A stretch of DNA of 40,926 nt, from assembly GCA_051008975.1 (NCBI GenBank), contig JBPCXA010000217.1, forward strand, positions 1 to 40,926, read 5' to 3'. The DNA is from Gammaproteobacteria bacterium (GTDB lineage Bacteria > Pseudomonadota > Gammaproteobacteria > Tethybacterales > Persebacteraceae). The notes under the pieces are model-generated. The model made no database searches, was not told where the DNA came from, and worked only from the letters and a program-made list of their open reading frames with translations. Position numbers and translations under genes: made by a program. This document shows, in pieces, positions 1-40,926 of this stretch (position 1 is the stretch's first letter; each line of letters begins with the position of its first letter).

Positions 1-127
1 ACTTGCAGATGTTGTGGGCTCGCACCCCGAAACGACGTAGCCGTTAATTGCATCAGACCACCAAGCGCCTCGCTCCCTCGCCTCTGAGCCAAGGCTGTGC
101 GTATTAGCGCCTAATGCAACCGATGCG
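1..127. repeat. Terminal direct repeat, left copy (circular-contig overlap)
   Basis: 1-127 is identical to 40800-40926, and a reading frame continues uninterrupted across the join. Confidence 0.95.
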
Positions 128-13394: not shown

Positions 13395-14186
13395 TTATTT
13401 TGCACAAATAATGCATGGCCTCGAATCATAACGTTCCCTTAGATCAAATTCATAATCAGGGAACATTTGTACTTGTCGCTCATAATCATCCAGCATTCTC
13501 TGAAGCGGTTTTCGGCTCAGTGACCATGTCGTTCCGTGGCCATCCTTGCTCGTTTCTTCTGCCTTCTTCTCTTCTGCCAGTGCTTGCGCGAATAACTCAG
13601 GCTCATGGCGCGAAAGCCCTAGCCATTCCGATTCCCTTTGCCAAGGACACATCCAACACCCACCTGTAGTCCGCCACGCATAAAATTTCGGAAGTTTGAT
13701 CTGCGATTCAGACAGAATATTCATCACCCCATTTAAATCAATGCAAGCTTCTCGCAAGGGGTAGGCATAATCAATGCCCTTTGAGATACCATAATTTCCC
13801 TCACGCTCTGGTTCATCAGCGCGTAGTCCAATATAAACTGTACAAGGCAAACCCTGTTTGCAATATCGCTCAATGGGCCTCAATTTCAAATGCTTTGTGC
13901 ACCATCTACTCTGCTTCCCTGGTAAAAACCATCCCCAGTGCTCTAGGTAAAAATCAAAGGTCCGACCATAATCCGTAAGACGAGAAATAGGAGACTCTAA
14001 GACATCTTCTAAATCATCCAGAAATCTGTAAAGGTCTGGAAATTCTCTGCCCGTGTCACAAAAAACATACTCTATCTGAATCTCTGGAAATGCCTGGCGC
14101 ATATACAAAGCCAGCGCTGTGCTGTCCTTTCCGCCAGATAGTGAAATAATGTGACGCATTGTGTTAGACTTGGCTGACATGCTCAT
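13395..14186 (-). CDS. Phosphoadenosine phosphosulfate (PAPS) reductase family protein (CysH/DndC-like)
   Basis: PP-loop SGGKDS, FCDTGREF, RWCT.HLK, GLRADE, GCWMCP, C-terminal CIIC. Confidence 0.85.
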   Translation of the reverse strand: MSMSAKSNTMRHIISLSGGKDSTALALYMRQAFPEIQIEYVFCDTGREFPDLYRFLDDLEDVLESPISRLTDYGRTFDFYLEHWGWFLPGKQSRWCTKHLKLRPIERYCKQGLPCTVYIGLRADEPEREGNYGISKGIDYAYPLREACIDLNGVMNILSESQIKLPKFYAWRTTGGCWMCPWQRESEWLGLSRHEPELFAQALAEEKKAEETSKDGHGTTWSLSRKPLQRMLDDYERQVQMFPDYEFDLRERYDSRPCIICAK

Positions 14187-14197
14187 GCTCCTATCAT

Positions 14198-14255
14198 GAG
14201 TGTGTTTGAGGATGTGTGAGAGGTCTCAGCTCTCACACATCCTATTCTCTCACTC
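14198..14255. other. Long intergenic hairpin
   Basis: AGGATGTGTGAGAG (14209-14222) / CTCTCACACATCCT (14230-14243) perfect 14-bp stem, with outer GAGTG/CACTC pairing. Confidence 0.8.
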
Positions 14256-14260
14256 TATTG

Positions 14261-14425
14261 CTACCACGACGAAACGCCAATCGTACCCGCTTCCCTGATT
14301 TTGTAGTCGTTGTGCGAAACCTGGTCCCTTTGGGAAGCGGCATCGTAAAGTCCTTTCAGGAAATCCTCTCTCTCTTGCCTGCGCCCAGATGATAGATATA
14401 CCATCTCTTCAAGTAATGCAATCAT
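14261..14425 (-). CDS. Hypothetical protein (54 aa)
   Basis: ATG at 14425 overlaps the upstream stop (ATGA). Confidence 0.5.
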   Translation of the reverse strand: MIALLEEMVYLSSGRRQEREDFLKGLYDAASQRDQVSHNDYKIREAGTIGVSSW

Positions 14426-14709
14426 TCGCCAGGCTTGACTGTGGCAGGTTGGGCACGCTGCTTGTCCGTTGCTGTCATCTGATCCTGCTTCTGCTGCAAA
14501 GCGAATAGCTGGCGCCTCGTCGCTTCGATCTCTTCGTAGCGGAGGACGGCCGCGACGTCTACCACCTTCTGGCAACTCAGGCATTGATGTCCCCTTGGAG
14601 GATAGACCGTTCCTCCTCCCGTATTGAACCTGATGGCTACCACGGCGATGAATAAAGTCCCTTGGCACTCAGGGCACGCCAGGTCTTTCTGCTCACGGAG
14701 TTCAGCCAT
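14422..14709 (-). CDS. Zinc-ribbon protein
   Basis: CPEC...CLSC. Confidence 0.6.
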   Translation of the reverse strand: MAELREQKDLACPECQGTLFIAVVAIRFNTGGGTVYPPRGHQCLSCQKVVDVAAVLRYEEIEATRRQLFALQQKQDQMTATDKQRAQPATVKPGE

Positions 14710-15703
14710 GTGCCATCTCCACTAAGTCGTGCTCATGCCAGTCTTGATGATTCGCCGTCCACAGTACAGTCTCTTGAAATCCCTCATCAAATGACATCAT
14801 TGGGCGCCAGTCCAACCCTTGCAGCTTGCTGTTATCCATCATGTATCGCTTGTCATGACCTGGGCGCCCAGGAGTGAGAATGTAATCACAAGATTTAATG
14901 AGTCGTCCATCCCGTTGTAATTCATACTCTATTTGCATGAATATTCTTTGATCCGTATGCTCTTCATCTGCTCCAAGATTGTAACTTTCACCGGGTTTTC
15001 CACGCTGCAACAAACACTCAACAGCACGGGCATGATCGCTCACATGCAGCCAATCTCTCGCGCCCTGACCATCATTGTACACGGTTACAGATTCGCCACG
15101 CAGCATCTGACCGACAAACTTGGGGATCACCTTCTCAGGATGCTGCCCCGGGCCGTAGGTATTGCATGGGCGCACGATCACAATCGGCATGTCGTGGGTC
15201 ACATAAAAGCTGTTAGCCACAGCTTCGACTCCGACCTTGCTGGCACTATAGGCATTGCTCGGGTTGAACGGCGTGTATTCGTCGAACTTTTCGCCATAGG
15301 GGGTAGAGCCAAACACCTCATCAGTCGAGTAAACGAGAATCTTTTTTGGCATGCCGCCACTATGATCCCACCAAGATTGATATATCGCCTGCAATAGCCG
15401 CGTCGTACCCAGCACGTTACTTACGATAAATTGATCTGGTGCGCTGACGGCACGGTCCACATGGGTCTCTGCCGCCATATGTACTACCCAATCGGGGTTC
15501 CACGCTGCACAACGTGCTGCCAAATCTCCAGTACTCAGATCGCCTATGAGGATATGAACTTTGTCTAAAACATCAGCAAGATTGCGACCTTTGCCGGCGT
15601 ACGTGAAGCGATCCGCCACGCACACCTCATGTCCCTGCGCCACCATATGCTTGGTGACGTACGAGCCGATAAAGCCTGCACCACCAGTAACCAATACTCT
15701 CAT
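14702..15703 (-). CDS. rmlB: dTDP-glucose 4,6-dehydratase (NDP-sugar dehydratase)
   Basis: VLVTGGAGFIGS, D.FTYAG, HMAAETHVDR, STDEVFG, YSASK, NTYGPGQHPEK.IP, RDWLHV.DH, RPGHD.RY. Confidence 0.92.
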   Translation of the reverse strand: MRVLVTGGAGFIGSYVTKHMVAQGHEVCVADRFTYAGKGRNLADVLDKVHILIGDLSTGDLAARCAAWNPDWVVHMAAETHVDRAVSAPDQFIVSNVLGTTRLLQAIYQSWWDHSGGMPKKILVYSTDEVFGSTPYGEKFDEYTPFNPSNAYSASKVGVEAVANSFYVTHDMPIVIVRPCNTYGPGQHPEKVIPKFVGQMLRGESVTVYNDGQGARDWLHVSDHARAVECLLQRGKPGESYNLGADEEHTDQRIFMQIEYELQRDGRLIKSCDYILTPGRPGHDKRYMMDNSKLQGLDWRPMMSFDEGFQETVLWTANHQDWHEHDLVEMAHG

Positions 15704-28106: not shown

Positions 28107-28400
28107 TTATTTGCCGCTGGAATGAGATGTTGGTGTGCCTCTTGACTGTTCTCTACGCGATGACATCTGCACTAGCAACCGTTGCAACTCGTCGATTTTG
28201 GCATCTAGGCGATCGATGTGCCGCTCTAGGCGATCAACGTGCTTGCTCCAATTTTCCCGCAGCATGGCTCCAGGGTGTGGCTGCGCGGAATGCTGGCGGA
28301 GCGTGAATGCACCGACAGCACCACTTAGTAAGACAATGGCCATCATAGTGCCAAAAAACGATTTGTATGTGAGATAAGTGGAATCTGTTGTTGATTTCAT
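28107..28400 (-). CDS. Single-TM coiled-coil protein, first gene of the late operon
   Basis: Likely start MKST at 28400; TM segment then (DRLERHI)-type heptads. Confidence 0.6.
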   Translation of the reverse strand: MKSTTDSTYLTYKSFFGTMMAIVLLSGAVGAFTLRQHSAQPHPGAMLRENWSKHVDRLERHIDRLDAKIDELQRLLVQMSSRREQSRGTPTSHSSGK

Positions 28401-28411
28401 TTCACGCTCAC

Positions 28412-28500
28412 ACCGGGGATAGTCAGTAACTATCCCCGGTATACAGGGAGCTCGGCTAGGTTCGCCGCGTATCCGGGTCAAATCGAGTACGCCCTAGCCT
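28412..28500 (-). promoter_or_regulatory. Structured 5' leader of the late operon
   Basis: GGCTAGG/CCTAGCC stem enclosing GCGTA/TACGC, followed by the perfect 12-bp hairpin ACCGGGGATAGT/ACTATCCCCGGT (28412-28440). Confidence 0.6.
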
Positions 28501-28506
28501 AACTAG

Positions 28507-28535
28507 ATCGTACAAGCACGAGAGGTATTTGTCAA
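28507..28535 (-). promoter_or_regulatory. Sigma70-type leftward promoter of the late operon
   Basis: TTGACA-17 nt-TACGAT. Confidence 0.75.
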
Positions 28536-28595
28536 TTCTGTATCTCCATGAAATCAGCGACATACGAGATATTTGCATTCCCCATCAAATACCCC

Positions 28596-28624
28596 TTGAC
28601 ATTCTACCGCTATAGTAGTATATT
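28596..28624 (+). promoter_or_regulatory. Sigma70-type rightward promoter
   Basis: TTGACA-17 nt-TATATT. Confidence 0.8.
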
Positions 28625-28630
28625 TATATT

Positions 28631-28773
28631 AGAAGGTAGGACGGAGCAAGGGAAGCGGGGCTCCTGAGAAAAACAGACCCGAATGACTACCCGAAACCGA
28701 GCCGGCAAGCGCAAAGCCAGGCAGGGGAGAGAAAAGGCAAAGGGCCACGGGGCTTATGAAAAACCAAGATGTC
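28631..28773 (+). ncRNA. Candidate ~140-nt structured RNA released by hammerhead cleavage
   Basis: Lies between the predicted TSS and the GUC cleavage site; GGTAG/CTACC and GGAGC/GCTCC stems; no T between 28689 and 28753. Confidence 0.45.
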
Positions 28774-28819
28774 GCCGGGGATGGTACCCCGGACCTGAGG
28801 AGAGACCATACGAAACATC
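28768..28819 (+). ncRNA. Hammerhead ribozyme, type III, with loop I-loop II pseudoknot
   Basis: Stem III GAUGU/ACAUC; GUC site (C28773); stem I GCCGGGG/CCCCGG(A)C; core CUGAGGA (28795-28801); G28802-C28811 stem II; GAAA (28812-28815); loop I AUGGU complementary to loop II ACCAU. Confidence 0.88.
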
Positions 28820-28832
28820 AAGGGGAAGCGTG

Positions 28833-29036
28833 ATGAAACTGTACGAAATCAGAATCGCCAACGTAAAAAAAACCCACCTAGATATCGCCATCGACCGCTT
28901 CGGTTGGCATGACGCAAATATCGATTGGTGGAATTACAACGCAGGATGCACACTCACAGTGAAATCCAACACAAACGAGATCGATCGCTTTGACAAGATG
29001 CTGAATAAACCCAGCAGAGTCAAAGAAATTAGCTAA
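28833..29036 (+). CDS. Small hypothetical protein (67 aa) downstream of the hammerhead
   Basis: AAGGGGAAG RBS then GTG/ATG; MKLYEIRIANVKKTHLDIAIDRFGW... Confidence 0.7.
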   Translation: MKLYEIRIANVKKTHLDIAIDRFGWHDANIDWWNYNAGCTLTVKSNTNEIDRFDKMLNKPSRVKEIS

Positions 29037-29042
29037 TACACT

Positions 29043-29062
29043 ATGGCCCCTTCGGGGGCCAT
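29043..29062 (+). other. C(UUCG)G tetraloop hairpin between cassette genes
   Basis: ATGGCCCC-TTCG-GGGGCCAT, no U-tract. Confidence 0.75.
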
Positions 29063-29080
29063 GCACCAAGGAGAAGCAAG

Positions 29081-29356
29081 ATGGAACGGACAATCAAACA
29101 AATCACGACGCGCCACACCTTTGCCTCTCGCCTAAGAGAGGTTCTTCCACCCGGACGCAGCGCATCGGCTACGTGTAAAGCGATGCGCGATGAGGGCTAC
29201 AAAATCAGCCAGCAAATGATGTCAGACATGCTATGCGGAGCCAAAAAACCATCGCTAAGGATGGCGACTCAGATCGCCGATTACTTTGAGATCGATTTGA
29301 ACTGGTTAGCTGGCAGGGAGTGGCCACCGAATGAAGAAAAAAAGGCAAGCGAGTGA
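29081..29356 (+). CDS. XRE-family HTH regulator
   Basis: FASRLRE...ISQQMMSDMLCGAKKPSL..ATQIADYFEIDLNWLAG; AAGGAG RBS. Confidence 0.85.
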   Translation: MERTIKQITTRHTFASRLREVLPPGRSASATCKAMRDEGYKISQQMMSDMLCGAKKPSLRMATQIADYFEIDLNWLAGREWPPNEEKKASE

Positions 29357-29386
29357 AAACTCCATTAACTATCACAGATAAGCATG

Positions 29387-29424
29387 TAACGAAGGAGCGC
29401 CACAGAAATGGCGCTCCTTCGTTA
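29387..29424. terminator. Probable bidirectional terminator hairpin
   Basis: 16-bp perfect stem TAACGAAGGAGCGCCA/TGGCGCTCCTTCGTTA between convergent transcription units; U-tracts are weak. Confidence 0.7.
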
Positions 29425-29685
29425 AGCTGTGAATCTGTATTTCCCACCATTCGTTCCCTGACAATGCTTGCACAAGATTCCGTTAATCGTCCCTGTATGA
29501 TCCTCCTCGCAATACTCGGATGTGCACTTGTACATACCCTTCTTGTGCAGCAGTAAAGAGCACAGCGCACAAGCAGGATGCCCCTTCAGAGGCTCATTGC
29601 AAAAAACACAAGCCGTCTTCCTATCCTTCTTTTCAGTTGGCCCGGGATGGATTGCCGGGGTCAGTAATTTACGTGGCATGATCAT
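29422..29685 (-). CDS. Cys-rich zinc-finger-like protein
   Basis: CVFC, CALC, CTSEYC, CKHC. Confidence 0.6.
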   Translation of the reverse strand: MIMPRKLLTPAIHPGPTEKKDRKTACVFCNEPLKGHPACALCSLLLHKKGMYKCTSEYCEEDHTGTINGILCKHCQGTNGGKYRFTA

Positions 29686-38992: not shown

Positions 38993-40926
38993 GCGATATC
39001 GTCGCAGCAGCGGTGTTGTGTTGTACTGTCACCGTAATATCGCCAGAAGTAGTTGTGGTAGCTACGCCTATGGAGCCTACTCCTGCAAGCCTTGTTACGG
39101 CTGAGGCTAAACCGCCCAAGCCGCCTGGGCCAGACATTTCAAACGTGCCAAATGTCGTGACGGTGGTTTGATTGTTTGGATCGCCGGAAACACGCATCGA
39201 TAATATCCAGCTGCGTTGGGTCGGGCTCGTCGTGATTGATGCAAAAGGGAAATTCCCAATAGTCGTTCCCTTATACCTCACTCGCAACGTAACAGTCTCA
39301 TTTATACCGCTGTTGTTTGTATACTCTCCTGCGACTTCTAATTTTACGCCACTCGGGCCATCAATAGCATTCCCTGGAATCGTTGTGGTAATGATAGTTG
39401 TTTCTACTGCTGTGTTAGAAACAATAGCACTGGGGATGACACTATGATCTGCAAGTTGAACAGAAGTATCTCCAGTACGAGTGATCGTTACTCCTGCTCC
39501 AGGCCTTCCAGCATAATCAGTTGTTGTGAATAAGATATTGTTTGGGCCAAGCTGAGTATCAGAAACTGCTCCAGATGTGAAATCCACAGCGGTTGCATAG
39601 CCAGAAATCGCATTGGAATGGACTGAATTACCCACCAGCCCATTAGACAGTTTGACAGCAATATTTGTCCCACTTCCACCGAAAGAATTTCCAACAATAG
39701 AAACTCCTCCACCGAGCCCAGGAGTCACACTATCCAAGTCGATTGTCGCGGGTGATGAATCCTCAAAGTAATTTCCGCCTATAAACCATCCAATGGGAGT
39801 TCTGCCTCGAATAGAGCCAAGCGCGTTTCCTTCAATATCGCTACCAGTAATCGATACAGCGCGAGTTTGTGCCGTAGCATTAATTCCCCATCCGAGATTA
39901 CCCTGAATGCGTGATTGATCAATGGACACTTGGTTTAAGTTCTGACTTAAACCATCCATTTTTATGCCATCACCCACGTTTGCCTGCACATAGAGATTCG
40001 AAAATCTCAGAACAAGAGAGATGCCTCCAGTCGCCAAATCGTCAATCAGTATACCTGCTGTCGTATGTCCGGTTGCACCTACCCCGCCCGTCGCTCTCCC
40101 CGCAACTCGGACATTCTGCACATCGATATCTGCTGCACCAAAGATGTGCAGACCTGTGGCGCCAGTTGTTGAACGAATCGCGAGATTACGGATGGTTACC
40201 GTAAAATTGAAATCGCCTGGCGACGTGCCGCCATCAATTAAAACCCCATCGCCTGAACCTGTGTAACGAAGGATCGTGCCGGCAGTTTCGATGACTACAG
40301 AACCATGACTGCATCCTTCAAGAATTTGGCCTCTGTTTAGCGAGAGTGTTGTTGCAAACCTGATCACACCGCAAGGAAGAGTAATGTGTTCCGTGGAATC
40401 TAATGCAAGCTGAAGAGCGGCCGAATTGTCAGTCAAGTCGTCGGCTACAACGCCGAATTCAGCAGCAAAACGGCCTGAGGCAACCGTGTTAGAAGGAATG
40501 CTTCTTACTGGTGCTATAAGCGATACCGCTGTAATTGCCCCGCCACTTACCGTAACTTCAGAAAAGACAAGCCCCCCAGAAGGGTTGGCCGGCTGTGTAA
40601 CGTTCATCTGCCAAAGATAATGAGTGGCCCCGTGCCTAGTCCATCCAGACACGGCAGATACTCGCTCTCTATGCAGGGCCAGCCAGTAGGTGCCATCTCC
40701 GCCACTAAGAGGGCCAACAACGCTTGACGGTTGAATCGTATAGATGATTTCGCCTGAATCTTCTAGATACCCCTCACAAGCAAAAGCAGTGACCGTTGTA
40801 CTTGCAGATGTTGTGGGCTCGCACCCCGAAACGACGTAGCCGTTAATTGCATCAGACCACCAAGCGCCTCGCTCCCTCGCCTCTGAGCCAAGGCTGTGCG
40901 TATTAGCGCCTAATGCAACCGATGCG
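38952..40926 (-). CDS. Tail spike / depolymerase with pectate-lyase-like beta-helix (true start at 168/180 across the contig join; ~671-675 aa)
   Basis: AAEFGVVADDLTDNSAALQLALD...LPCG (pectate lyase superfamily N-terminal motif) and beta-helix rungs (IEGN, IGGNYFE, IVGNSF); frame is open from 40652 to the contig end. Confidence 0.8.
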   Translation of the reverse strand, partial: ASVALGANTHSLGSEARERGAWWSDAINGYVVSGCEPTTSASTTVTAFACEGYLEDSGEIIYTIQPSSVVGPLSGGDGTYWLALHRERVSAVSGWTRHGATHYLWQMNVTQPANPSGGLVFSEVTVSGGAITAVSLIAPVRSIPSNTVASGRFAAEFGVVADDLTDNSAALQLALDSTEHITLPCGVIRFATTLSLNRGQILEGCSHGSVVIETAGTILRYTGSGDGVLIDGGTSPGDFNFTVTIRNLAIRSTTGATGLHIFGAADIDVQNVRVAGRATGGVGATGHTTAGILIDDLATGGISLVLRFSNLYVQANVGDGIKMDGLSQNLNQVSIDQSRIQGNLGWGINATAQTRAVSITGSDIEGNALGSIRGRTPIGWFIGGNYFEDSSPATIDLDSVTPGLGGGVSIVGNSFGGSGTNIAVKLSNGLVGNSVHSNAISGYATAVDFTSGAVSDTQLGPNNILFTTTDYAGRPGAGVTITRTGDTSVQLADHSVIPSAIVSNTAVETTIITTTIPGNAIDGPSGVKLEVAGEYTNNSGINETVTLRVRYKGTTIGNFPFASITTSPTQRSWILSMRVSGDPNNQTTVTTFGTFEMSGPGGLGGLASAVTRLAGVGSIGVATTTTSGDITVTVQHNTAAATISLRSRAYFLEMLPQ
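40800..40926. repeat. Terminal direct repeat, right copy
   Basis: Identical to 1-127. Confidence 0.95.

What the first reader, a model, noticed from the sequence alone, without database searches (positions are those of the whole stretch)
28768..28819. Pseudoknotted type III hammerhead ribozyme in a phage transcript leader
Seen: all conserved hammerhead elements are present in order on the + strand: GAUGU-C (GUC site, C28773), stem I GCCGGGG/CCCCGG-A-C, CUGAGGA, one G-C pair for stem II, GAAA, and CAUC closing stem III. Loop I (AUGGUA) can form 5 Watson-Crick pairs with loop II (AGACCAUA). Established: loop I-loop II contacts, including pseudoknots, are what make natural hammerheads active at physiological Mg2+. 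Hammerheads have been reported in phage intergenic regions, but their roles there are largely unknown. Inference: cleavage would leave a 5'-OH mRNA starting about 60 nt before ATG 28833, and an upstream RNA with a 2',3'-cyclic phosphate.
Basis: partly seen in the sequence, partly recalled or inferred. Interest (0 to 1): 0.85.

Follow-up and report, generated by a model that had tools for sequence, protein, structure and literature searches.

The report
Phage hammerhead ribozyme ahead of gene
A small self-cutting RNA (a hammerhead ribozyme) sits just in front of a gene start in a cave phage; the kind is well known, but this compact version belongs to a recurring phage group that the standard RNA family library does not pick up.

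Summary
Window 28768-28819 (+) carries a complete type III hammerhead: stem III GAUGU/ACAUC, cleavage after C28773, a 7-bp stem I with one bulged A, CUGAGGA, a single G-C stem II pair closing an 8-nt loop, GAAA, and a 4-5 bp loop I/loop II pseudoknot. Chance is excluded: it is the only descriptor hit in the 2.35 Mb assembly. In 400 Mb of random sequence there was 1 weaker hit and none as good.

It is not a one-off. Pattern scans that left the stems unspecified found the same architecture in viral contigs, giving 18 distinct sequences including this one. Stem I, stem III and the pseudoknot all covary. A covariance model built without the window sequence scores it 54.4 bits, E 4.8e-14.

Rfam 15 reports neither this ribozyme nor 16 of 16 relatives' loci searched as a hammerhead at its thresholds.

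All 18 members have a Shine-Dalgarno sequence and start codon 12-32 nt after the ribozyme. The genes that follow are unrelated.

Best reading: constitutive self-cleavage removes about 143 nt of leader. It leaves a 5'-OH mRNA capped by the folded ribozyme next to the ribosome binding site. Cleavage and transcription are inferred, not shown. This is a known kind of element, in a compact subclass I did not find described.

The parts
28596..28624 (+). Promoter-like site TTGACA-17 nt-TATATT. The presumed transcription start is near 28631.
   Evidence: Consensus scan, 11 of 12 matches. This is a prediction only: 3 sites were found in the region against 1.7 expected from shuffles.
28631..28773 (+). 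Presumed 5' leader fragment (about 143 nt, 71% purine). It would be released with a 2',3'-cyclic phosphate after cleavage.
   Evidence: Inferred from the promoter and the cleavage site. Composition. No significant fold (z = 0.94). No Rfam match.
28768..28772 (+). Stem III 5' strand GAUGU (U28772 = U16.1).
   Evidence: Pairs with ACAUC 28815-28819. Stem III pairs 1-5 are standard pairs in 18, 18, 18, 17 and 15 of 18 class members, and pairs 2-5 show changes on both sides.
28773..28773 (+). C17. The predicted scissile bond lies between C28773 and G28774.
   Evidence: GUC triplet in the canonical position. 16 of 18 class members have GUC, one GUU, one CUC.
28774..28794 (+). Stem I hairpin: GCCGGGG / AUGGUA loop / CCCCGG(A)C, 7 bp with A28793 bulged.
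   Evidence: All 7 pairs show changes on both sides across the class, and 99% of cells are paired against 63% in shuffles. The combination of a 6-nt loop and a bulge recurs in L209, L292, L278 and L336.
28795..28801 (+). Catalytic core strand CUGAGGA (C3 U4 G5 A6 G7 G8 A9).
   Evidence: C, U, G, A, G, A are invariant in the class alignment.
28802..28811 (+). Stem II reduced to the single pair G10.1-C11.1, closing the 8-nt loop AGACCAUA.
   Evidence: All 18 class members have the same 8-nt loop closed by G-C. The loop length was fixed by the scan patterns.
28781..28785 (+). Pseudoknot (kissing) strand in loop I, AUGGU. It pairs with ACCAU at 28805-28809.
   Evidence: In the class register loopI[-i]:loopII[i+1], pairs i=2-5 are standard in 18, 18, 18 and 17 of 18, each with changes on both sides.
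28805..28809 (+). Pseudoknot strand in loop II, ACCAU.
   Evidence: As for 28781-28785.
28812..28819 (+). G12 A13 A14, then the stem III 3' strand A15.1-CAUC.
   Evidence: CGAAAC is invariant in the class alignment. That part of it was imposed by the pattern.
28820..28835 (+). Shine-Dalgarno-like AAGGGGAAG, then GTG 28830 / ATG 28833.
   Evidence: Read. The start lies 14 nt (GTG) or 17 nt (ATG) after A15.1, within the class range of 12-32 nt.
28833..29036 (+). First gene of the small + strand operon: a 67-aa protein with no relatives found.
   Evidence: only itself found, recorded as 67 aa; no family; no viral relatives.
29081..29556 (+). Two further + strand ORFs. One of 91 aa has weak HTH/repressor-like hits. 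One of 67 aa has no hits.
   Evidence: phrog_4 at 1.1e-05 and phrog_2328 at 2.6e-05, both 'transcriptional repressor'; HTH_3 below cut-off.

Best explanation
This is a genuine type III hammerhead ribozyme of a compact phage subclass. The subclass has a 7-bp stem I, a single G-C pair as stem II, and a 4-5 bp kissing pseudoknot between loop I and the 8-nt loop II. The pseudoknot takes over the job of holding stems I and II parallel. The ribozyme is transcribed as part of the leader of a small + strand operon. It cuts itself between C28773 and G28774. The 5-bp stem III then falls apart and releases an upstream fragment of about 143 nt with a 2',3'-cyclic phosphate. The mRNA now begins with a 5'-OH G followed at once by the folded stem I/pseudoknot body. 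The Shine-Dalgarno sequence starts directly after the former stem III strand, and the start codon follows 14-17 nt after A15.1. The likely effect is a fixed, structured, context-independent 5' end for the downstream gene, in the manner of an insulator or stabiliser cassette. Shown here: the anatomy, the statistical non-randomness, membership of a covarying class, and the fixed position in front of a ribosome binding site. Inferred: transcription, catalysis, release of the 5' fragment, and the effect on mRNA fate.
For: The complete core and the three helices are present, with canonical pairs next to the core. It is the only descriptor hit in 2.35 Mb. In 400 Mb of random sequence, 0 hits were as good. 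Seventeen other distinct sequences with the same architecture were found in viral contigs, using patterns that did not specify stem I, its loop or stem III beyond its first two pairs. One search also left loop II free; one search fixed CCA within it. Of the 15 rows with a 1-bp stem II, 14 had a pseudoknot of >=4 bp although none was asked for. One of those, L239, I later judged to be type II. Covariation over the 18 sequences: stem I cells paired 99% (shuffles 63%), with all 7 pairs changed on both sides. Stem III pairs 2-5 changed on both sides. Pseudoknot pairs 2-5 were paired in 18, 18, 18 and 17 of 18, all with both-side changes. No shuffle of 500 reached the observed values. The window sequence forms a standard pair at every one of these positions. 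The leave-one-out covariance model R2 (16 sequences, window excluded) scores the site 54.4 bits, E 4.8e-14. The next best hit in the window is 9.0 bits. Stem I, core and pseudoknot geometry also match the common type II pseudoknotted phage hammerheads. L181 has the same GCCGGGG..CCCCGG-A-C stem with a compensated pseudoknot, UGGG/CCCA. Context: 18 of 18 class members have an SD plus start 12-32 nt after A15.1. Among type II relatives, 59 of 69 have an SD plus start within 80 nt, against 376 of 1380 random same-strand positions. In print (PMC3088659, passages read): a 1-bp stem II with a pseudoknot cleaves at >1.2 per min in 0.5 mM Mg2+. A halovirus hammerhead lies 13 nt before a start codon, and the mapped mRNA 5' end is within 3 nt of the cleavage site. 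In PMC10187678 (passages), type I hammerheads with a 2-bp stem II whose loop forms the pseudoknot are active.
Against: There is no experimental or RNA-level evidence. Rfam 15 does not report the site at gathering thresholds. The class alignment was assembled by my own filters (stem I >=5, stem III >=3), so pairing in those two stems is partly selected for. The structural parse, including bulge placement, is mine and not a curated alignment. Position 7 is G here, whereas the 17 relatives have U, A or C. It is the variable core position, but its effect on rate was not tested. If the A28781-U28809 pair forms, no unpaired nucleotide is left between stem I and the pseudoknot, so the helix may be only 4 bp. 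In PMC3088659, shortening a 6-bp pseudoknot to 4 bp cost about 20-fold in rate. The proposed benefit to the mRNA is not supported by any calculation. Predicted accessibility of the ribosome binding site is no higher after cleavage: mean 0.51 before and 0.54 after, up in 9 of 18, and down in the window itself from 0.50 to 0.41 (the model ignores the pseudoknot). No close relative of this phage was found, so the site's conservation in its own lineage is unknown.
Confidence: 0.82

Rival explanations
1. Regulated rather than constitutive device. Cleavage, or its outcome, is coupled to translation. One route is unmasking of the ribosome binding site when the 5' strand of stem III (and the flanking CC 28764-28765 / GG 28822-28823 pairs) leaves. 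Another is competition between ribozyme folding and ribosomes translating the 25-codon uORF 28756-28830, which spans the whole ribozyme and whose TGA stop overlaps ATG 28833.
For: The SD begins 0-4 nt after stem III in most class members. The stem III 3' strand is predicted to be more open after cleavage in 15 of 18, mean 0.51 to 0.70. The uORF exists and its stop overlaps the start as TGATG. In fungal and plant RNA viruses, 5'-UTR hammerhead self-cleavage is reported as essential for translation initiation (PMC13725137, abstract only). PMC3088659 raises regulated cleavage for phage hammerheads.
Against: Predicted accessibility of the SD/start window does not rise systematically: up in 9 of 18, mean 0.51 to 0.54, and it falls in the window. 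A 25-codon open frame in purine-rich sequence is not unlikely by chance. I did not test whether a uORF recurs in the relatives. No ligand-binding or switch element is evident, and the leader has no significant fold.
Confidence: 0.15
2. A hammerhead-shaped sequence that no longer works, or never did. It would be a decayed or rearranged copy derived from the common type II pseudoknotted form, or a chance match with no role.
For: It is a single copy with no relatives of this phage to show conservation. It is below Rfam thresholds. It has an unusual G at position 7 and a bulge next to the core-proximal pair of stem I. PMC3088659 notes that some phage hammerheads may not be functional.
Against: No core position departs from the consensus, and all pairs next to the core are canonical. 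Chance expectation is below about 2e-4 per window. It matches an independently built class model at E 4.8e-14. The same bulge and loop-length combination recurs in four other class members. It sits at the class-typical distance from an SD and start.
Confidence: 0.08
3. The stretch is coding. The ORF starts at ATG 28683 (117 aa), and the hammerhead motif lies inside the N-terminal part of a protein.
For: ATG 28683 is in frame with ATG 28833 and the frame is open.
Against: There is no SD before 28683, whereas AAGGGGAAG precedes 28830/28833. The public protein collection holds only the 67-aa form. The extra 50 residues would be low-complexity and basic, and have no family match. In all 17 relatives the gene starts after the ribozyme. 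A coding role would also not exclude cleavage.
Confidence: 0.04

Closest known systems
Type II pseudoknotted hammerhead ribozymes of bacteria and phages (Rfam RF02276; Perreault et al. 2011, PMC3088659)
   Same: Same core. Near-identical stem I and loop: Rfam consensus ..CCggGcgUGGugGCccGGcaCUGAUGAG.AGCCa, and L181 GCCGGGG-AUGGGA-CCCCGGAC. Same 2-nt linker from G10.1 to the pseudoknot strand. Very short stem II, with 1 bp validated in that paper. Same position directly ahead of an SD and start.
   Different: The topology is circularly permuted. Here stem III is open and stem II is closed by the loop that carries the pseudoknot strand. There is no CGAAAC-hairpin upstream, and the Rfam alignment of that part is spurious. 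As a result the upstream product ends in single-stranded RNA rather than in a stem III hairpin.
Type III hammerhead ribozymes (Rfam RF00008), including the common phage form with a 2-4 bp stem II seen in the same scans
   Same: Same topology and core. Phage type III examples such as ..GUC CGCCGG UAAAAGU CCGGCG CUGAUGAG CAAGAG CGAAA.. are abundant.
   Different: Stem II is a single pair, and an 8-nt loop forms Watson-Crick pairs with loop I. RF00008 scores a class member only 28.3 bits against a cut-off of 48.5. It reports none of the 16 relatives' loci searched.
Halovirus HF1/HF2 'HHphage' hammerhead (PMC3088659, discussion passages)
   Same: A phage hammerhead 13 nt upstream of the start codon of the first gene of an early polycistronic transcript. 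The mapped 5' end lies within 3 nt of the cleavage site. Here the ribozyme ends 13 nt before ATG 28833.
   Different: HHphage is a high-salt variant with a divergent structure from an archaeal virus. It has no known kissing pseudoknot of this form.
Type I hammerheads with a 2-bp stem II whose loop pseudoknots with stem I (mouse gut metagenome, Yarrowia; PMC10187678, passages)
   Same: A closed, very short stem II whose loop supplies the pseudoknot strand. Shown to be active.
   Different: Type I topology and 2 bp rather than 1.
RiboJ-type synthetic ribozyme insulators (recalled from memory, not from a call)
   Same: A self-cleaving hammerhead-derived element placed between promoter and ribosome binding site. 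It removes a variable leader and leaves a hairpin-capped 5'-OH mRNA.
   Different: It is engineered and derived from a plant satellite RNA ribozyme with a conventional stem II. The natural role here is unproven.

Membership tests
Hammerhead ribozyme (any type) | Conserved core C3 U4 G5 A6 N7 G8 A9, G12 A13 A14, A15.1-U16.1, H17 (not G). | tested here: met
   CUGAGGA 28795-28801, GAA 28812-28814, A28815-U28772, C28773. Descriptor hit.
Hammerhead ribozyme (any type) | Three helices around the core, with canonical pairs adjacent to it (1.1-2.1, 10.1-11.1, 15.1-16.1). This is the acceptance rule of PMC3088659 methods. | tested here: met
   G28774-C28794, G28802-C28811, A28815-U28772. One single-nucleotide bulge in a 7-bp stem I.
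Hammerhead ribozyme (any type) | Tertiary contact between stems or loops I and II. | tested here: met
   A 4-5 bp Watson-Crick loop-loop helix. It covaries in the class.
Hammerhead ribozyme (any type) | Site-specific self-cleavage giving 2',3'-cyclic phosphate and 5'-OH ends. | not testable with these tools
   No RNA run is listed for this DNA. This needs a bench assay.
Rfam hammerhead models (RF00008, RF02276, clan CL00010) | Score at or above the curated gathering threshold. | tested here: not met
   0 matches at gathering. The best hit is RF02276 at 16.5 bits against 37. The same failure holds for all 16 relatives' loci searched, so it reflects the models' coverage.
Type III topology | 5' and 3' ends in stem III, with stems I and II closed by loops. 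| tested here: met
   Order of elements. RF00008 aligns a class member end to end.
Type II pseudoknotted hammerhead (RF02276) | Stem III closed as a hairpin between C-GAAA and H17, stem II open, and a 3' tail that pairs with loop I. | tested here: not met
   Upstream GAAAAACCAAGAUGU cannot form stem III. Non-canonical pairs are flagged in the Rfam alignment. Only the stem I/core/pseudoknot half matches.
Compact type III subclass defined here (7-bp stem I, 1-bp stem II with 8-nt loop, kissing pseudoknot) | A significant score against a model built from other members only. | tested here: met
   R2 (16 sequences without the window): 54.4 bits, E 4.8e-14, next best 9.0 bits.
Compact type III subclass defined here | Pseudoknot in the class register loopI[-i]:loopII[i+1], i=2-5. 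| tested here: met
   The window forms U-A, G-C, G-C, U-A at i=2-5 and A-U at i=6.
Compact type III subclass defined here | SD and start codon within about 12-32 nt after A15.1. | tested here: met
   GTG at +14 and ATG at +17. 18 of 18 members comply.

The most novel reading that the evidence does not exclude
The window's ribozyme belongs to a hammerhead subclass not yet described and invisible to Rfam. In this subclass stem II has shrunk to one base pair, and a covarying loop-loop helix does all the work of docking stems I and II. The ribozyme is fused at a fixed distance to a ribosome binding site. This makes a portable 'ribozyme-RBS cassette' that phages place in front of fast-changing small genes. 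It is the type III (leader) counterpart of the type II (intercistronic) cassette, differing only by circular permutation. The permutation decides which cleavage product keeps a protective hairpin. If so, self-cleavage here is a general phage way of giving each cargo gene a defined, structured 5'-OH end, and possibly of licensing its translation.
Probability: 0.3. Interest if true: 0.55.

Novelty: new variant of a known kind. Interest (0 to 1): 0.42.

Why it matters
Hammerheads in phages have been known since 2011, and their role is still open. This site adds three things.

First, it shows a blind spot. Rfam 15 reports neither this ribozyme nor the 16 relatives' loci I searched, so routine annotation misses a recurring phage ribozyme form. 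The model made here could be used to count it across viromes.

Second, the subclass is close to the smallest natural hammerhead layout: 52 nt, one stem II pair, and a 4-6 bp kissing helix. That makes it a useful natural data set for how a pseudoknot can replace a helix, and a compact part for RNA engineering.

Third, there is a strict position rule. The SD and start follow within 12-32 nt in 18 of 18 members, and the cargo genes are unrelated. Alongside the type II relatives, this gives a concrete and testable hypothesis for what phage hammerheads do: they define the 5' end right at the ribosome binding site. It also suggests why the two permutations exist.

None of this would surprise a ribozyme specialist in kind. 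The value is incremental and practical.

Tried and rejected
Searches for close relatives of this locus found none:
- blastn of 28400-29400 against 50,697 phage records: no match.
- DNA search of 10 other genomes of the same family: 0 of 10.
- Own assembly: no second copy.
- Protein-based locus searches in viral contigs, with the 67-aa ORF and the 1162-aa neighbour: no relatives.
- Protein search of 5.8 billion sequences with the 117-aa reading: only the window's own 67-aa protein.

Scans that fixed this site's stem I found type II hammerheads but no type III relative:
- CCGGGG..CCCCGG..: 67 loci.
- CCCGG..N7-9..CGAAA: 19 loci.
- The single metagenome scan (7 loci) and the single genome scan (2 loci).
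Relatives appeared only when the stems were left unspecified.

Rows dropped:
- L118, L192 and L239 were dropped from the type III set because an upstream CGAAAC-hairpin shows they are type II.
- L293, L249 and L209:192-251 were dropped from the covariation count because they have a conventional stem II.
- L233, L235, L284 and L329 are identical copies and were counted once.

Methods that did not work as hoped:
- MAFFT and the CM-fitted alignment A3 misplace the stem I bulge and the 6/7/8-nt loop register for 5 of 18 rows. I therefore did not run the count of structure pairs and used my own parse instead.
- My first pseudoknot script over-extended stem I and was replaced. In the type II set the cognate versus non-cognate contrast was modest: mean 4.05 against 3.21 bp, and >=5 bp in 19 of 57 against 10%.

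Ideas rejected or unsupported:
- The type II reading of the site (Rfam's alignment) was rejected because no stem III hairpin can form.
- RBS unmasking by cleavage has no support from predicted accessibility.
- Other ribozymes in the window: none. All 27 CTGANGA sites were inspected, and the whole-window Rfam search at E<=5 gave 0.
- The leader 28631-28773 has no Rfam match, no significant fold, and no match for a leader-derived pattern in viral contigs.

RNA evidence: no RNA holder was listed. The four DNA runs, all from one study, showed no sequence variants across the site.

Literature: five full-text searches turned up no description of a type III class with a 1-bp stem II, and no tested function for SD-adjacent phage hammerheads. 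The supplementary alignments of PMC3088659 may contain such sequences, but I could not see them because supplements are closed.

Full report
What is there. Reading window 28768-28819 on the + strand gives GAUGU-C | GCCGGGG-AUGGUA-CCCCGG(A)C - CUGAGGA - G-AGACCAUA-C - GAAA - CAUC. In hammerhead numbering:
- U28772 is U16.1 and C28773 is C17.
- Stem I is 7 bp with A28793 bulged.
- CUGAGGA (28795-28801) is C3-A9.
- G28802-C28811 is the 10.1-11.1 pair and the only pair of stem II.
- GAA (28812-28814) is G12-A14.
- A28815 pairs with U28772.
- CAUC completes a 5-bp stem III.
- AUGGU in loop I (28781-28785) is the exact complement of ACCAU in loop II (28805-28809).

Is it chance? No. The bare core pattern occurs once in the window and in none of 100 shuffles. 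A descriptor that asks for the core, U16.1-H17, a stem III of at least 4 bp and a stem I of at least 5 bp finds exactly one site on both strands of the whole 2.35 Mb assembly, and it is this one. In 400 Mb of random sequence of the same composition there were 160 core matches, one descriptor match and none as good as this site (stem III >=5, stem I >=7). That count is before the pseudoknot is considered. None of the other 26 CTGANGA sites in the window has hammerhead surroundings.

Why the databases are silent. Rfam 15 reports nothing in the window at gathering thresholds or at E<=5 over the whole window. In a 251-nt search the best hit is the type II model, at 16.5 bits against a cut-off of 37. 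That alignment is informative. Stem I, its loop, the core and the strand after G10.1 fit the type II consensus well. The 5' half (CGAAAC plus a stem III hairpin) is forced onto sequence that cannot pair. So the site looks like the familiar type II pseudoknotted phage hammerhead, but with the strands connected differently.

Relatives.
- No close relative of this phage or its flanking genes turned up.
- Scans that fixed this site's stem I returned many type II pseudoknotted hammerheads. One of them, L181, has the same GCCGGGG...CCCCGG-A-C stem, a one-pair stem II and a compensated pseudoknot, UGGG/CCCA instead of UGGU/ACCA. None of these scans returned a type III relative.
- A scan that specified only GUC, CUGANGAG, an 8-nt stem II insert and CGAAAC gave 99 pattern matches in 98 loci, and 23 of them had stems I and III.
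- Fifteen of those 23 rows had a one-pair stem II. Fourteen of the 15 had a pseudoknot of at least 4 bp although none had been asked for. One of them, L239, I later judged to be type II.
- A second scan (CTGANGAG NNNCCANN CGAAA, 74 loci) and a covariance-model search of the held loci added L309/L329 and L336.
- After dropping type II look-alikes, members with a conventional stem II, and identical copies (all listed under Tried and rejected), 18 distinct sequences remain, including the window.

Structure support from the class. I parsed each sequence into stem I (7 bp, with an optional single bulge in the 3' strand), loop I, loop II and stem III. I then counted the pairs.
- Stem I: 99% of cells are standard pairs, against 63% in shuffles. 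All seven pairs show changes on both sides.
- Stem III: pairs 1-5 are paired in 18, 18, 18, 17 and 15 of 18, and pairs 2-5 have both-side changes. Pairs 6-7 are not conserved.
- Pseudoknot: the helix has one register throughout. Counting loop I from its 3' end and loop II from its 5' end, nucleotide -i pairs with nucleotide i+1.
- Pseudoknot pairs i=2-5 are standard in 18, 18, 18 and 17 of 18, each with both-side changes. Examples are UGGU/ACCA, UGGC/GCCA, UGACG/CGUCA and UUGGCG/CGCCAA.
- No shuffle of 500 reached the observed pairing or covariation in any of the three helices.
- The window forms a standard pair at every one of these positions.
- Its combination of a 6-nt loop I with a bulged nucleotide in stem I recurs in L209, L292, L278 and L336. 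This keeps the stem-loop at 21-22 nt.
Caveats: stems I and III were partly selected for by my filters, the 8-nt loop II was fixed by the scan patterns, and the parse is mine.

A model built without the window (R2, 16 sequences) finds the site at 54.4 bits, E 4.8e-14. Nothing else in the window scores above 9 bits.

Rfam does not report a hammerhead in any of the 16 relatives' loci searched. RF00008 gives 28.3 bits against 48.5 on L231. The blind spot therefore concerns the subclass, not only this copy.

Surroundings.
- The window is a whole contig of a metagenome-assembled genome.
- It has a 127-nt terminal repeat. An independent assembly closes on itself at the same size, so the replicon is circular at about 40.8 kb.
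- It encodes a major head protein, large terminase, internal virion protein, replication initiator and RecT-like protein, so it is a phage.
- Almost all genes run on the - strand. The exception near the site is a three-ORF + strand island (28833-29036, 29081-29356, 29353-29556). It diverges from the leftward genes at 28481 and converges with those from 29669.
- The first and third ORFs are orphans. The second has weak repressor/HTH-like hits.
- A near-consensus promoter-like site (TTGACA-17-TATATT, 28596-28624) lies 150 nt upstream of the cleavage site.
- The 143-nt stretch between them is 71% purine, has no significant fold and has no Rfam match.

Position rule.
- In all 18 class members an SD-like motif starts 0-4 nt after stem III in most cases. 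A start codon opening an ORF of at least 30 codons follows 12-32 nt after A15.1, usually 14-19 nt. The window has GTG at +14 and ATG at +17.
- The downstream proteins are unrelated to each other. Seven of 17 have any PHROG hit, and only three have a named function.
- The type II relatives obey the same rule. Fifty-nine of 69 have an SD plus start within 80 nt of the core, mostly 20-27 nt, against 376 of 1380 random same-strand positions.
- In L231, L292 and L209 a second hammerhead follows the small cargo gene.
- This matches the published picture of phage hammerheads flanking single genes of changing identity. It also matches the halovirus case, where the ribozyme lies 13 nt before a start codon and the mRNA 5' end maps to the cleavage site (PMC3088659, passages read).

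How it most likely works.
- Shown: the anatomy, the class and the context.
- Established elsewhere: a loop I-loop II helix can supply the tertiary contact that makes hammerheads fast at physiological Mg2+. A natural one-pair stem II with such a helix cleaves at >1.2 per min in 0.5 mM Mg2+. Lengthening that stem II, or shortening the helix, hurts (PMC3088659). Closed two-pair stem II loops that pseudoknot with stem I are also active (PMC10187678).
- Inferred: the RNA made from the 28596-28624 promoter folds, cuts after C28773, and the 5-bp stem III dissociates. The purine-rich 143-nt piece leaves with a cyclic phosphate and no protective hairpin. The mRNA starts with a 5'-OH and the compact stem I/pseudoknot fold, directly followed by its ribosome binding site.
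- From memory, not from a call: 5'-OH ends escape 5'-monophosphate-dependent RNase E attack in some bacteria, but are targeted by RNase J1 in others (the glmS case). So the sign of the stability effect depends on the host.
- A tidy corollary of the permutation, again inferred: the type II form leaves a stem III hairpin on the upstream product, which suits intercistronic sites. The type III form does not, which suits a disposable leader.

What did not hold up. I tested whether cleavage would expose the ribosome binding site, using predicted unpaired probabilities before and after cleavage in all 18 members.
- The SD/start window does not change systematically: mean 0.51 to 0.54, up in 9 of 18, and down in the window.
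- Only the former stem III strand opens, in 15 of 18.
- The model ignores the pseudoknot and tertiary fold, so this is weak evidence. It still gives no support to an unmasking switch.
- A 25-codon uORF (28756-28830) spans the ribozyme, and its stop overlaps ATG 28833. I could not test whether that matters.

Comparison and novelty. In kind this is a hammerhead ribozyme in a phage, of type III, with a pseudoknot. All of that is in print. Two things I did not find in print: a recurring type III form in which stem II is a single pair closing the pseudoknot loop, and the strict fusion to a ribosome binding site. The five searches were made, and supplementary alignments could not be read. PMC3088659 mentions a single-pair stem II 'in one case', a type II. 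PMC10085705 (passages) reviews the known circular permutations and adds non-circular ones, but not this form. I therefore file it as a new variant of a known kind, with moderate interest. It is a correct and useful catch that standard annotation misses, and a lead on phage ribozyme function, but not a surprise in principle.

Verdict. Confidence that this is a genuine, active hammerhead that trims the leader is about 0.8. Its effect on the mRNA is open.

Noticed in passing
window 1-127 and 40800-40926: The window has a 127-nt exact terminal direct repeat. An independent 40,829-nt contig of run X1 closes on itself. The phage genome is therefore circular or circularly permuted, about 40.8 kb, and complete in the window.
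   Followed up: yes
window 28655-28705: A 51-nt stretch of the leader upstream of the ribozyme matches other contigs of the same study (2,342 and 8,278 nt) with 6 differences. The flanks of those contigs share further short motifs (GGACGGAGC, CGAAACCGAGC). It may be a conserved leader or operator element of related phages. It has no Rfam match. A motif scan of viral contigs found nothing.
   Followed up: partly
window 28756-28833: A 25-codon uORF (MKNQDVAGDGTPDLRRDHTKHQGEA) spans the whole ribozyme. It ends in a TGA that overlaps ATG 28833 (TGATG), an arrangement typical of translational coupling. I did not test whether it is used or recurs in relatives.
   Followed up: no
window 28596-29556: The ribozyme heads a three-ORF + strand island set against the - strand orientation of nearly all other genes. 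A second promoter-like site faces the other way at 28535-28507. The middle ORF (29081-29356) has weak repressor-like hits. This may be the phage's regulatory or immunity module.
   Followed up: partly
window 13395-15703: The phage carries a PAPS-reductase-like gene (phrog_424, 1.4e-50) and a nucleotide-sugar epimerase-like gene (phrog_540, 1.5e-85) among its structural genes.
   Followed up: no
L278:12149-12219 (-) and L278:12445-12505 (-): A type-P5 twister ribozyme (37.7 bits, just over Rfam's cut-off) lies about 230 nt downstream of the class hammerhead on the same strand. The two bracket the 72-aa cargo ORF.
   Followed up: no
L217:2170-2227 (-): A Mu-gpT-DE RNA (RF03012, 51.7 bits) is present in a contig that also carries a class hammerhead. 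This points to a Mu-like phage.
   Followed up: no
L231:10724-10805, L292:7531-7590, L209:192-251: Second, weaker hammerhead-model hits (24.6-32.5 bits) lie just downstream of the small gene that follows the class hammerhead. Single genes are thus flanked by two ribozymes.
   Followed up: partly
L174:3577-4684, L064:7803-9271, L192:9647-11573, L088:3166-7134: Several viral contigs carry three or four type II pseudoknotted hammerheads within 1-4 kb, each ahead of an SD and start.
   Followed up: partly
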